NCBI GenBank assembly: GCA_963514005.1
Contig: OY740797.1
Location: 19,654,001 to 19,718,000, forward strand
DNA length: 64,000 bases
Direction of reading: 5' to 3'
Origin: Raja brachyura
Lineage: Eukaryota
The notes under the pieces were generated by a model. The model was given only the letters and a program-made list of their open reading frames with translations. It searched no databases and was not told the DNA's origin. The position numbers and the translations under genes were made by a program. Below, piece by piece: positions 52,901 to 58,600 of this stretch (the first letter of the stretch is position 1; every line of letters begins with the position of its first letter).

Positions 52901-53254
52901 TATCCAACAATATTTATAAATCGGAGGTCTCCCTCTGTTCCCAGTTCTGTTTGCGAGTCTTACCTGGCTTGACTGTGCAGTCGACTCTGGCCGGGAGCGT
53001 AAGGGAGACATGCGACACTAGGCAGGTGTAAATAACAACGCGCCAGGTAGGCTTCGTTACTTCGAGAAAACTGGAAGCCTCATACAACCCATTCACACTA
53101 CTGATATTCACAGGTTCTTCCCCGGTGTAAATTGTGACTCCATTTCTTTGCCAGAATATCTTGACTTCCTTCGGAAAAAAGGCAGCCGTTTTACACACAA
53201 GTCTGGGCGGCGAACTGCCTTTAATTGGGCTAATGTTCGGGGGAGTAGGCGGCG
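49988..53254 (-). CDS. Ig-superfamily receptor B, partial: C1-set - Arg-containing TM - Tyr-free tail (no leader or V exon found in window)
   Basis: C1 53254-52964, TM 51211-51107, tail 50174-50078, last exon 49997-49988 (GSC*); GT-AG with compatible phases 1,1,2. Confidence 0.75.
50078..50174 (-). CDS. Receptor B cytoplasmic exon
   Basis: GSVVKVDRLVETSEQTMNREEHGKTSEHVIENG; ttcctgtctag acceptor, gtaaga donor. Confidence 0.65.
51107..51211 (-). CDS. Receptor B transmembrane exon (charged)
   Basis: GSARVVHVLRNVGGTLIILLVLATLRIVFGSSSAK; tttttacgtctgcag acceptor, aaag|gtgaat donor. Confidence 0.75.
51620..52620 (-). mobile_element. CR1 LINE fragments in the receptor B C1-TM intron
   Basis: MREGLAQVDWSRLFEGKGTSAKWDVFK and CR1 3' tail. 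Confidence 0.8.
52964..53254 (-). CDS. Receptor B C1-set domain exon
   Basis: APPTPPNISPIKGSSPPRLVCKTAAFFPKEVKIFWQRNG...YTCLVSHVSLTLPARVDCTVKP; 19 of 97 aa differ from receptor A C1. Confidence 0.92.
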
Positions 53255-55615
53255 CTGTAACAGAAGAAGAAAATATGTTGAATATTTCCTTTCCATTGCC
53301 TCGTCACACCGCGACCTTGCACTCTCACCATCAGATCGGTTATCGGTACAATCGCTTTTACACTCACTGATTTGTCATTGTTTTCGATTTCACCTTGAAA
53401 TATATCCAAGCAATACACAAGGAATCCGAGGTTTGGATGTAGGTAATATGCGGGGTTCTGAACAATGTTCTGAAGTGCCAAATCAGGAGCTTGGCGGGGG
53501 GTGTATCATCGCTGGTAACAACGTTTTCTGTTCAGTTCAAAAATGGCCGTTTTTTTCGCGAATTGGTGCAAAAAATGATACGTGTAGAGTGGAATATCAC
53601 AGAGACACACAGCACAGCACTGAGCAGCCCAGCTGACCTACTGCATCATCAAACCTCCATCTCCATTTATTCAATGTTCATCTCCTGTCAACTTTCCTCT
53701 TCACTCCTCACCACGACCAATCAACCGGGACAATTTACAGAGTTTTCCTACCAACCTGTGGCATGCGGAATAAACCGGAGCAACGGAGGAACATCTACGC
53801 CTTGAAGGGGAGAACTATATATGGACGCACGCAGGATCTGGGTCGAACTTGGGTCGCTGAAGTTGTGGGCAGCGCTAACCAATGTAGCACTGTATATATC
53901 CAGATATCATCAATATCAATAATCAAGAGGCAGGCCGTAGTTGCATAGATGAGAGCTTGGTCCACACTTTAGTACCTTGGATGGGGGGGCTCAAGTGATA
54001 CGGCTTTTGGCCCGGGAGGCTTCTCCACAACGTATAACTGCGCCATTTGAAGGCATGATAGAGTTACACTAATAATTATTAAGAAGGAACTGCAGATGTC
54101 TGAAGAGTGGTCTCGACCCGAAATGGCACCCATTCCTTCTCTCCAGAGATACTGCATGTCCCGCTGAGTTACTCCAGCTTTTTGTGTCTGTCTACTGATA
54201 ATTAGTATCGCCGTGCAAATATTAGACGCTTCTTCAATAAGTACAATACGCGAATGGGAAATCCAAACTTAGACCACGTCTCTTCTACAATTTTGCCATT
54301 TTCCAAATGTACTCGGTTTGATGAAGACGTTTGGTCTGAATAAGATTTCACTTATATCAGCTCAGAGTGGGTCAATTGCGAACGCTGATCTACCTCCGTC
54401 GGATCTGCAATCAGTAGATAGCTAGTAGGAGGCCTCTTGTTAAATCGCTCTTCGAGTTGATGACAACTTTACGAGTTTATCATCGAGAATGAATAATTGG
54501 GGGAAAACGTGGGGGAGACTGAGGACTGAGTCCTGTAAGAATATAATTGTAAGGACAGGAGCCCTGGCGTTTGCCCCCAAATGTCGTTAACTCTTACTCG
54601 TCTTTTACAAAGTTTACAAAGGTGTGTAAACGAGAATCCTCGGAGTGAGACGGTGATATTCTGTCCCTGGAGTAAGAATCCAGCAAATCAAACCTCTCAA
54701 CGGTTTATAGGATCCATCTGTATAATAACCACGGTGGTTTGATACGGGGTTCAGCTTCGTTTACAGCCGACGAATAAAAGAGTAGAATATTTAAGGCCGA
54801 GGCCGCTCCGTTCTTCAATTCAATCGTAGGTGGTTTGTGCGTCGGGTCTCTGTGTCACAAACCCGGTTGTCACATACCCCACGATAACTAATCCAAATGA
54901 ATATTCTAACATCCCGATCTCGAGAGATCAATTTATTTTCTTGTTTCCAGACTTTAAGTGAATAAAGTAACAGATTTCGGAGATAATTTGTAACGTGGCG
55001 CGTAAAAAGCGAAAATTATGTGTGAATCAATATGGACTGTAAACATTATTCTTGTGAGATTGCAATCACTATTGGCGTAGAGTGGTGGCGTTTGAATATT
55101 GTTTTAAAGAACCTATCCAGGATGGGGGTGTTATTCCGTTGACTTCGGGAGCAGAAATGGGACATTCGTATCACAACTAAGATTAAAACATCCACGTGGC
55201 GTCAACATTTTCCATGAAAAACAATTCGAAAAAAACTTGTAATCTAAGTCGGGGGTTACACAAAAAGCTGGAGAAACTCAGCGGGTGCAGCAGCATCTAA
55301 GGAGCGAAGGAGATAGGCGACGTTTCGGGTCGAGACCCTTCATTTGATTTACTACATTCAAGCACACCATGGGGGTAAATAAAGCATGAATCTGGATCTG
55401 GGTCGTGGGCAATAACGCGAAAGTGGACAGCGCGAATCTACAGGAGAACACTGGAAAATTAACTGGAGAAGTACGAAATGAGGAAAAGAACATTTTCTCT
55501 CTACACAGATGCCGACCCACTTACGGATTATTTAAATATATCAGATTTGGAACGGTTTACTTTTATAGTATAAATCTTATCGAGTTTTTGCCGAGTTATA
55601 AAATGTCATGTTATT

Positions 55616-58600
55616 GAATGGAAATAGTCTTGCCGGAATAATTGTACTATTTAATCTTATTCTTTGTTATACGTTATGTCACTGGTATGAAGTCAAAGTA
55701 TTTCCAGAGACTAATTCTGGCATTCCTGTCAACTCCCAACAAAACTGCTTTGGGAACCATTCATTATATTGGAAAAAAAACTATTATTCAGAGCTACTGA
55801 GTCTGTAGTCTTGACTAGTATATCAGTGACTTGCTTGGATATCTTGATTTGCTGTGTGGTTTTCAACCACTGATGGTGATTAGTTCCAATATCTTTTTTA
55901 ACAGCTGGTGAATAATACATCTAAGTGCCCTGAAACAACATTGTTTATATTAAGATAAATGTTATTTCCCCCCCTCCAGTATACCTACATTCCAGCTCAC
56001 ATCACCAAACCCAAAGAGCACAAGAAGCTATTCTTAGTGCAAGAAAAAGGTATGATATACAGTTGTGTAAATATGATGGCGTTTAAAATGTGATCAGACA
56101 GAAACATTCAGCTACAAAGGTGGTCTCACTTGATACCATTTGTTTTCTTGCATGTCTCAAGTGCTTTGGTAAATGAGTGAAAAGGAAAGTATATGAACAG
56201 TTCATATACTGCAAGATCCAATGAACATCAGTTGCATATATGGTTGATATGTTAGGCTGTTGCTTGGATTATGTTGTTTGACTGTAACATTGGAATATTG
56301 GCATCTGCATAGCAAATGTATAGGAGTTTGGTTAGTCAGTGGCTTGTATGAAGGACAACCCTGATGCAATGCTACTTCAATTAATTATAGGACTTGAATC
56401 TCACTTCTACTTTGAGTTAGATGTTGACACAAAGTGATGGCTGATGTTTGTGATGCAAACAAAGTGTAATAAATTGGCTGATATTATGGCTGCTTCACCA
56501 CACCCCAACCCCAACAATCTTTATATACATATAAAAGTCATCTTGTATGTGTCTTTCTATCATGTGCAGAAATGTTCACAGATTATTAATCGCATTAACC
56601 CCCTCGATAAAATTAACTGCTTCACTCCAATTAATTTATCTTGGCATTGTGTGTGCCTCAACATTAGAGGCCCATTGGCCTCGTCCTGTGCTGTACTGTC
56701 TTTTATTTTGGATTGTGTTGGTGGGGTCCAGGTGTTGTGTTGGTTATATCATGTTATATAGTTGTTAGCCCCTGCTGCATATGATTATCTGGTGGCTAAT
56801 GGTCTGTAATGGTCCTTGCTTTACAACAGCCCTTTTTGCAGTTCCAAAGAATTACAAGCTGGTAGCCGCACCGTTATTTGAACTTTATGACAATGCTCCT
56901 GGTTATGGGCCCATTATCTCCAGCCTTACTCAGCTTTTGAGCAGGTAATGAAAAAATGCAGTACCAGCTTAAGTAATTTTCTTTTCAAATGGTCGTTATG
57001 CTTCTGGGAATATGACTCCTTGGATTTATTACTTTCTGTAATGTTTTGCCTCACTAGTTTATTAAAAATGAAATGCAGTCACTAATATTTTAAAGGTATC
57101 TTCCCAGACATCTGACAATTGTTTTGCATGGTCCACTTTCTATTTCTATATTGGGCACTTCCATTATCAACAAATGAATTTTCAGTACAAGCTGAAAACC
57201 AACATCTGATGCTTGTTTTTTAGAGATTTTCCTTTCCCCATGGATCATCTAGATATCACCTATATATGCACTAGGCGAGTTCTGATTAATGTGGGTTTCT
57301 AAACCCTTCAGCTCTTTGTTTTCCTTGTAACAAGCTGACAAAGTGCAGTAAGGCAGTAGAATTCCTGAAGCACAAGTCAAAGCTTAAACAATAGTCAATA
57401 GGTGCAGGAGTAGGCCATACAGCCCTTCAAAGCAAGCACCGCCATTCAAAGTGATCATGGCTGATCATCCACAATCAGTACCCCGTTCCTGCCTTCTCCC
57501 CATAATCCCCTGACTCTGCTTTCTTCAAGAGCTCTCTCGAAAGTTTTCAGAGAACAGCCCTCTGAGGCAGAAAATTCCACCGACTTGCAACTCTGTGTGG
57601 AAAAGTGCAAACATTAGAGGTTTAAGGATTGAAAGAGCATGGGGAGATGTCATTAAAATGTTCATCAAATCGGGTGCTTAATTTGGATTGAGCAAATAAA
57701 ACTAAATTTAAAAATGTTTTTTTCTCAGAACTTCATGTTCACCTCGTGTGAGAATTTAATATTATGATCGTTCATTTCAAAGTACATACAAGACTGGCCT
57801 GGTTATTAATACACAAATATGGGAACACCATGGAACAAGCGAAAGACTAGGAATTGTTGCCATTCATCCCTGAAGATCCTTCTTAATTATGGCCTGCATG
57901 CTGCCAACTTTCACCCGTTACTTGGCCCTCCACTCCAATTGTCAGTTGCAAGGCACCAGATTCAGCAAAACAATTTATCAGTTTACATTTTTTGCTCAAT
58001 ATCTTAAGTTTTGATTCTTAAAAAAAAAAATCTTGCCTTAAATTCCAGGGATATAACTCTATACAGACACACCAGGCTTGGTAGTTAAATTATCCTGACT
58101 TTCACAATAAATTCTTCCTCGGCAGAGTTGAATGAAGAATGTTTTTGTTTTTACACAACGTGTGTTGGCTGGGAATGGTCCAATAGATATCAGCTAAAAG
58201 GCCCTGCTAGCACCACCATTATTTTGCAATTACTTTAATAGTAATTCGAATATCACTGTACCTTAATTGATACACGTGACGATAAAAGACTTTTGAAACC
58301 TTGAATTGTTCTAAATATTACCTGCATAAACTCTGGCTGATCATGAGACTCTGAAATCACTGATTTGGCCTGCTTCAAGTTATGTGGCCTGATTCATCCA
58401 ATGCTTTTTCTATATGAAGAGCTTTGTCTCATCTGTTTTTTTCCTTTGCAGTGTATGCATCTGTTTTTAAATGTAGCTGAAGTTTCTTCTTTAATTTTTA
58501 GGTTTAATTTTATTTATAACTGAAGTGTATGGATGCATTGCTCAAGATCCTGATGGGTGTACAACTCCAATTTCTTGTGAACATCTGCAAGCCAGTAGTC

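What the first reader, a model, noticed from the sequence alone, without database searches (positions are those of the whole stretch)
53254..55700. One duplication breakpoint appears to truncate both receptor B and the second NUDT21; predicts a ~40.3 kb tandem duplication
Seen: NUDT21 intron-4 sequence (15342) restarts abruptly at 55616, an offset of 40274 bp. This is 2.36 kb upstream of the B C1 exon, whereas the V-C1 intron of A is 2.66 kb. No V exon was found in 53255-55615. Inference: a head-to-tail duplication of 15342-55615 left intact NUDT21 plus V-less B in unit 1, and headless NUDT21 plus (predicted) A' and a complete B' in unit 2. The immune-receptor cluster would be expanding with a housekeeping-gene fragment as passenger.
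Basis: partly seen in the sequence, partly recalled or inferred. Interest (0 to 1): 0.7.

Follow-up and report, generated by a model that had tools for sequence, protein, structure and literature searches.

The report
40-kb duplication yielding three broken genes
In a cartilaginous fish (likely a ray or skate), a 40-kb stretch holding two antibody-like immune receptor genes and the tail of the housekeeping gene NUDT21 was copied head-to-tail, leaving three broken gene copies and no extra intact one; this is ordinary gene birth-and-death in a little-described family of likely brake-and-accelerator receptors, and the same junction appears in sequence data from a related organism.

Summary
Confirmed, real and mostly ordinary. 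Unit 1 is 15342-55615 (40,274 bp); unit 2 is 55616-96303 (40,688 bp, read beyond the window). The junction is blunt, with no microhomology, filler or RAG signal, and stops 37 bp short of receptor B's VJ exon. The copies differ at 2.7% of sites and carry private transposon insertions. A second organism's contigs hold the junction and both parental joints, so it is not an assembly artefact. A' and an intact B' lie where predicted, but A' has two stop codons and a +1 frameshift. Outcome: NUDT21, A and B' are intact; B is V-less, NUDT21' is headless and A' is a pseudogene. NUDT21 rode along because its stop codon is 2.5 kb from A's. A (ITIM-like tail) and B (transmembrane Arg) look like an inhibitory/activating pair in a 32+ member non-rearranging VJ-C1 family found across cartilaginous fish. 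A third organism lacking the junction shares derived letters with unit 1 at both ends (8 events versus 0 with unit 2, among the rows shown). That hints the duplication joined two already diverged haplotypes.

The parts
15342..55615 (.). Duplication unit 1 (40,274 bp): NUDT21 intron 4 to 3' end, whole receptor A, receptor B without leader and VJ
55616..64000 (.). Start of unit 2, which continues to 96303 in continued numbering (G000:C17:19750303; 40,688 bp) and holds pseudogene A' (exons 72593 down to 61021) and intact B' (C1 93706-93996, TM 91852-91956; its VJ 96341-96646 and leader 97048-97102 lie just outside the unit)
55615..55616 (.). Blunt junction: B V-C1 intron (homologous to 96303, 37 bp from the VJ donor) joined to NUDT21 intron 4 (15342); 0 bp microhomology, no inserted bases
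   Evidence: crossed by contigs of runs X2 and X7
7213..18236 (+). Intact NUDT21 (CFIm25), 7 exons: 7213-7325, 10160-10360, 11590-11653, 12291-12380, 15706-15781, 16556-16670, 18215-18236
55980..58523 (+). Headless NUDT21': exons 5-7 only (55980-56049, 56830-56944, 58502-58523); splice sites kept, 6-bp in-frame deletion and two Pro>Thr changes
20694..35374 (-). Receptor A, intact 311-aa ORF: leader 35320-35374, VJ 34810-35115, C1 31857-32147, uncharged TM 29757-29855, small cytoplasmic exon 29111-29154, last exon 20694-20834 with two ITIM-like tyrosine motifs
51107..53254 (-). V-less receptor B remnant: C1 52964-53254 and TM exon 51107-51211 with an Arg near the outer end of the helix; frame open, splice sites intact; tail not resolved, no ITIM-type exon found
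61021..61161 (-). Last (ITIM-like) exon of pseudogene A', cut off by upstream stops
55249..55339 (.). 91-bp piece of a high-copy short repeat (SINE-like; label recalled) in unit 1 only; absent from unit 2 and from organisms B, C and E, so inserted after the duplication
27041..28606 (.). Tc1/mariner-type element present in unit 1 only (in an intron of A)

Best explanation
One old head-to-tail duplication of 40.3 kb, likely made by blunt non-homologous end joining, cut NUDT21 intron 4 and receptor B's V-C1 intron and copied a likely inhibitory/activating receptor pair, leaving three broken copies (V-less B, headless NUDT21', stop-bearing A') and no extra intact gene. Shown: unit limits, blunt junction, gene models, lesions, post-duplication insertions, and the junction in a second organism. 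Inferred: end joining as the repair route; NUDT21's tail was captured because its stop codon lies only 2,457 bp from A's, tail to tail; A signals through ITIM-like motifs and B through an adaptor bound by its membrane Arg; the broken copies are drifting, with some later sequence exchange between units.
For: Units and junction. No microhomology; the look-alike bases left of the two breaks are matched by 155 of 2,000 random pairs, those to the right by 913 of 2,000. Real in reads: run X2 contigs 55387-55633 and 55604-55664 tile the junction; run X7 (another organism, sample and study) has a 99-bp junction contig with 4 letters of its own plus loose ends for both parental joints. Old: 956 of 35,890 columns differ, with 120 indel events and private insertions. 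Lesions: A' has two stops and a +1; NUDT21' lacks exons 1-4; the B remnant carries the derived state at 3 of 3 amino-acid differences from B' when A is the outgroup. Pairing: A and B' V domains are 93% identical and sister in V (99/90) and C1 (100/100) trees, while their TM and tail exons do not align. Shark and ray relatives come in both types: 5 of 24 with uncharged TM and two tyrosine motifs, 5 of 24 with TM Arg and a 15-34 aa tail. Later exchange: divergence is 1.4% in 34.6-43.3 kb versus 3.0% elsewhere (region picked after seeing the data).
Against: No contig meets the tool's own bridging rule of 31 letters on both sides (X7: 30 and 69; X2: 229 and 18, 12 and 49), and X1/X2 may be the assembly's own sample. 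The A' frameshift sits in a G8 run and could be a sequencing slip; the two stops do not depend on it but were not checked in reads. B's tail is unresolved, A's motifs have Pro at -2 and so are not canonical ITIMs (consensus recalled), and no expression or binding data exist. In NUDT21' exons 5-6, 4 of 6 substitutions are silent (p = 0.03 against neutrality; two are at CpG), which is more than plain decay predicts.
Confidence: 0.85

Rival explanations
1. Origin variant: the junction joined two already diverged haplotypes (unequal exchange between homologues in a heterozygote or hybrid). The 2.7% then overstates the event's age, and duplicated and single haplotypes were sorted among species.
For: Among displayed rows, checked against both units, junction-less organism B shares derived states with unit 1 at both ends: 5 events on the NUDT21 side (55654, 55727, the 55864-55881 cluster, 56164, the 4-bp gap at 56334) and 3 sites in the B intron (54591, 54602, 54994). 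It shares none with unit 2; organisms E and/or F give the ancestral state. B's contigs still run on into the intact VJ side. The excess of silent changes in NUDT21' fits time spent as an intact allele.
Against: Tables were cut (121 and 15 rows of letters not shown), B's contigs are shallow (depth 3.5-10), and contigs drop variants. Site 55672 is shared by both units but by no relative, which shows conversion or homoplasy. A 2.7% gap between alleles needs balancing selection or hybridisation, neither shown.
Confidence: 0.45
2. Origin variant: an older duplication in the common ancestor of A, B and C that collapsed back to one copy in B by unequal crossing-over.
For: Explains B's unit-1 alleles on the NUDT21 side; all displayed sites fit one crossover between 55447 and 55488.
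Against: Needs the crossover in the last 620 bp or less of a 40-kb unit (about 1.5% of its length), or extra conversion tracts.
Confidence: 0.3
3. The broken halves complement each other: A' leader and VJ exons splice across 19 kb to the C1 and Arg-TM exons of the B remnant, giving a new activating receptor with A's binding domain.
For: Same strand, right order and matching phase 1; the A' lesions found lie only in C1 and the first tail exon, while its leader and VJ are open; the B remnant's C1 and TM are open with intact splice sites.
Against: Staying open by chance is about even odds for 396 bp at this divergence (my estimate from rates). The splice must skip four A' exons and its 3' end. 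The B remnant has the longer branch.
Confidence: 0.08
4. Assembly artefact (two haplotypes laid in tandem).
For: The genome's own reads are not independent, and no single contig meets the 31+31 rule.
Against: No N gap; 2.7% divergence with kb-scale private insertions; two junction alleles at 55634 in run X2; the same junction with private letters in organism C.
Confidence: 0.02
5. RAG cut the B intron at a cryptic signal beside the J-like end of the VJ exon.
For: The break is 37 bp from the VJ exon, and a perfect heptamer lies at 96345.
Against: The heptamer is 41 bp from the break and simply encodes the J-like strand; the best nonamer has 5 of 9 mismatches; nothing signal-like at the NUDT21 break (consensus recalled).
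Confidence: 0.03

Closest known systems
Birth-and-death tandem duplication in paired-receptor clusters (KIR, Ly49, SIGLEC, SIRP, CEACAM; list from passages of PMC5112662)
   Same: Clustered genes with near-identical ligand-binding domains and opposite signalling parts; partial copies and pseudogenes; signs of exchange between copies.
   Different: The breakpoints are non-homologous and one lies in a housekeeping gene; the V exons of A and B' show no fresh conversion (silent divergence 0.14 in V versus 0.11 in C1), unlike the Xenopus CEACAM pairs.
Chondrichthyan V-C1-TM receptors auto-named SHPS1/SIRP-like, NCR3LG1-like, tapasin-related, Ig-lambda-like or TCR-beta-like
   Same: 67-69% identity in V, same exon order, both tail types; present in sharks, rays and a chimaera.
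   Different: Nothing of substance: A and B are members. The family has no settled name in the records seen.
Mammalian SIRP-alpha / SIRP-beta1
   Same: VJ-type V plus C1-set domain, tyrosine-motif tail versus charged TM; SIRP-alpha is the best non-titin PDB match (E 1.4e-12) and SIRP clusters score 0.95-0.96 in the Atlas for shark relative P0003.
   Different: One C1 rather than two; TM Arg rather than Lys (SIRP features recalled); no shared neighbours found; a bovine SIRP-beta1-like V lies outside on a long branch.
Non-rearranging VJ-C1 genes UrIg, UrIg2, NKp30, PRARP (abstract of PMC12227049; passages of PMC10751288)
   Same: Unsplit VJ exon followed by C1.
   Different: Those lie in the MHC or antigen-receptor complex, and UrIg2 has three C domains; this family has one C1, a TM and tyrosine motifs, and lies by NUDT21 and OGFOD1; weak match to UrIg2 (E 1.3e-9).

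Membership tests
Tandem segmental duplication | Two collinear head-to-tail copies with one novel junction and both parental joints | tested here: met
   organism C holds all three joints
Tandem segmental duplication | Junction present in raw long reads; doubled read depth | tested here: inconclusive
   Only contigs of runs were served; they cross the junction but fall short of 31 letters on one side, and their depth is no copy number
Homology-driven (NAHR or microhomology) duplication | Shared repeat or microhomology at the two breaks | tested here: not met
   0 bp; flank similarity at chance level
RAG-mediated germline rearrangement | Heptamer-spacer-nonamer at the break | tested here: not met
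Paired immune receptors | Closely similar ligand-binding domains, same cluster | tested here: met
   A/B' V 93% identical and sister taxa; two further V pairs identical or one residue apart
Paired immune receptors | ITIM tail on one, charged TM and short tail on the other | tested here: inconclusive
   A has two ITIM-like motifs with Pro at -2; B has TM Arg and no ITIM-type exon, but its tail is unresolved. Charged TM linked to FcR-gamma or DAP12 in a passage of PMC4016189
Paired immune receptors | Opposite signalling and shared ligand shown | not testable with these tools
   needs cell assays
SIRP family | VJ-type V followed by C1-set domain | tested here: met
   Pfam V-set and C1-set; J-like motif within the V exon
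SIRP family | V-C1-C1 ectodomain (recalled) | tested here: not met
   One C1 exon per gene
SIRP family | Synteny with NSFL1C and PDYN (recalled neighbours) | tested here: not met
   SEP-domain hits on C4 and C22, opioid-precursor hits on C4 and C5, none on C17; the second search is weak, 150 of 168 candidates scored
SIRP family | CD47 binding | not tested
   not attempted
UrIg / UrIg2 | V-C1-C2-C3, linked to MHC or antigen-receptor complex | tested here: not met
   single C1 plus TM; domain order from the outline of PMC12227049; linkage itself not tested

The most novel reading that the evidence does not exclude
The duplication is not dead weight: by parking B's C1 and Arg-bearing TM exons downstream of A's copied leader and VJ, it built a splice-chimeric activating receptor whose binding domain is 98% identical to inhibitory A. 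That would explain why this junction, perhaps formed between two diverged haplotypes, persists in two species. It would be a new paired receptor born from two pseudogenes across an antisense NUDT21 remnant.
Probability: 0.08. Interest if true: 0.65.

Novelty: new member of a known kind. Interest (0 to 1): 0.33.

Why it matters
As it stands this is a clean, base-resolved case of birth-and-death at the edge of an immune receptor cluster. It also gives two practical warnings: annotators will see two NUDT21 and four receptor loci where only one and two are intact. The junction is a presence/absence marker among related species and may record exchange between diverged immune haplotypes. The larger interest is the surrounding family: 32 or more non-rearranging VJ-C1 genes on one chromosome, in likely inhibitory/activating pairs, for which my searches found no paper.

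Tried and rejected
Filler at the junction: BLAST stopped at 55250, but this was a 91-bp insertion and homology resumes to 55615. Microhomology and RAG signals: not found. Homogenised copies in organism C: its single 518-bp contig may be an assembly collapse, so no claim is made. Faster evolution of junction-side copies: an effect of listing only differences from the window; 11 versus up to 10 events. Recent V-exon conversion between A and B': not supported. B's tail exons: not found by similarity. Structure prediction and complex prediction were not used; they would not bear on the breakpoint. The representative search was swamped by multi-Ig proteins. Literature: 9 searches found no description of this locus or family. 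PMC6761025 and PMID 34981186, which could describe it, are not held, PMC3709836 was not read, and no supplements were seen.
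Full report
Setting. The window is G000:C17:19654001-19718000 in a 2.7-Gb genome. Coordinates beyond 64000 continue the window numbering over fetched neighbouring stretches. The receptors' closest named relatives are shark, ray and chimaera proteins, and the C1 domains group with ray proteins at 98/99 support, so the animal is likely a ray or skate (inference).

Observation. Self-alignment shows NUDT21 intron 4 restarting at 55616. With 150 kb more sequence the match runs collinearly from 15342-55615 to 55616-96303. 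BLAST stops at 55250 only because of a 91-bp insertion in unit 1. The units are 40,274 and 40,688 bp. They differ at 956 of 35,890 aligned columns (2.7%; the badly aligned 45,700-45,950 zone left out; 1,024 of 36,141 with it) and by 120 indel events. These include a Tc1-type element in unit 1 and 4.2 kb with LINE-like frames in unit 2 (LINE label recalled). A genome search with the junction finds only it and its two parents.

Junction. It is blunt: no shared base and no insert. Flank similarity is at chance level (155 and 913 of 2,000 random pairs). The only perfect RAG-type heptamer is 41 bp away inside the J-like coding strand, without a nonamer (consensus recalled). Non-homologous end joining is the likeliest route (inference).

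Is it real? I laid 7 of 21 listed runs, from 5 of 7 organism labels; all are contigs. In X2 (organism A, possibly the assembly's own sample) contigs 55387-55633 and 55604-55664 overlap across the junction, and two junction alleles differ at 55634. In X7 (organism C, other sample and study) a 99-bp contig covers 55586-55684 with 4 letters of its own, and loose ends show both parental joints. None reaches the tool's 31+31 rule; X7 misses by one letter, as expected where a 31-letter-word graph forks (inference). Organisms B (2 samples), E and F show long contigs through the parental joints only; contigs cannot prove absence.

Genes. NUDT21 is complete, 7 exons and 227 codons. Its copy has exons 5-7 only, with a 6-bp deletion and two Pro>Thr changes. 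Receptor A is an intact 311-aa leader-VJ-C1-TM-tail gene with two ITIM-like motifs; its stop is 2,457 bp from NUDT21's, tail to tail, which explains the passenger (inference). A' has a +1 in a G8 run in C1, which alone could be a sequencing slip, and two in-frame stops in its first tail exon. B' is open through leader, VJ, C1 and a TM exon with an Arg; no ITIM-type exon was found and its tail is unresolved. The unit-1 B remnant keeps C1 and TM only. Net gain of intact genes: none.

Family. A's V exon has 32 matches, all on C17 (58 candidates scored; a lower bound). A and B' are sisters in V (41 rows, 99/90) and C1 (39 rows, 100/100) trees; rows were 12 and 10 cluster exons from 19.67-20.07 Mb plus stored proteins with a J-like motif, so 20 V hits were left out. 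Two further pairs have identical or one-residue-different V domains and differ in TM charge or tail. Of 24 relatives, 5 have uncharged TM with two tyrosine motifs and 5 have TM Arg with short tails; two of the latter carry one tyrosine motif next to the helix. This fits the paired-receptor pattern (passages of PMC5112662; charged TM and adaptor, passage of PMC4016189). It works like SIRP-alpha/beta on anatomy, but fails SIRP membership on domain count and neighbours, and it is not UrIg2 (abstract and outline). Earlier AI notes on other genomes describe the same family; they are leads, not support. Nine paper searches found no description; two likely papers could not be read.

History. Divergence is uneven: 1.4% over 8,000 central columns versus 3.0% elsewhere (region chosen after inspection), and site 55672 is shared by both units but no relative, so some exchange followed. 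Among displayed rows, junction-less organism B shares 8 derived events with unit 1, at both ends, and 0 with unit 2. Either the junction joined two diverged haplotypes (0.45) or an older duplication collapsed in B with a crossover in the last few hundred bases (0.3); the rest allows for cut tables and contig errors. I give no age in years.

Verdict. Observation confirmed and prediction borne out. It is an ordinary, old tandem duplication that made pseudogenes. The modest interest lies in the cross-species junction and the unnamed receptor family. A chimeric A'-B receptor is not excluded (0.08). Interest 0.33.

Noticed in passing
G000:C17:20041686-20049094 (+): An OGFOD1-type gene lies about 380 kb from NUDT21's 5' end on the same strand, with about 11 receptor V exons between them. 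The two are head-to-head in mammals (recalled), so an inversion of NUDT21 plus part of the cluster is possible.
   Followed up: no
G000:C17:19.69-20.28 Mb, 24.72-25.11 Mb and 16.79 Mb: The VJ-C1 family forms two large clusters and one outlier on one chromosome, 32 or more V exons; further older duplications at 84-89% identity within 19.81-20.05 Mb.
   Followed up: partly
L010 and L021 (continued 159585-159881 and 217702-217998): Two members have identical V protein sequence; one has an uncharged TM and tyrosine-motif exons, the other a TM Arg.
   Followed up: partly
continued 134546-135923 (L008): One member has two TM-like exons in a row, one uncharged and one with Arg; possible alternative signalling by splicing.
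   Followed up: no
continued 96345-96641 (L004): B' V domain has an extra Cys (Lys in A), a possible dimer bond.
   Followed up: no
window 18236-20694: PolyA-type hexamers on both strands leave open an overlap of the NUDT21 and A 3' UTRs.
   Followed up: no
window 1-4973: Decayed element with reverse transcriptase and tyrosine-recombinase frames (DIRS-like; label recalled), interrupted by a LINE-like piece on the other strand.
   Followed up: no
window 22418-23688: 1,271 bp, GC-rich, present in unit 1 only; insertion or deletion not settled, no Pfam match.
   Followed up: partly
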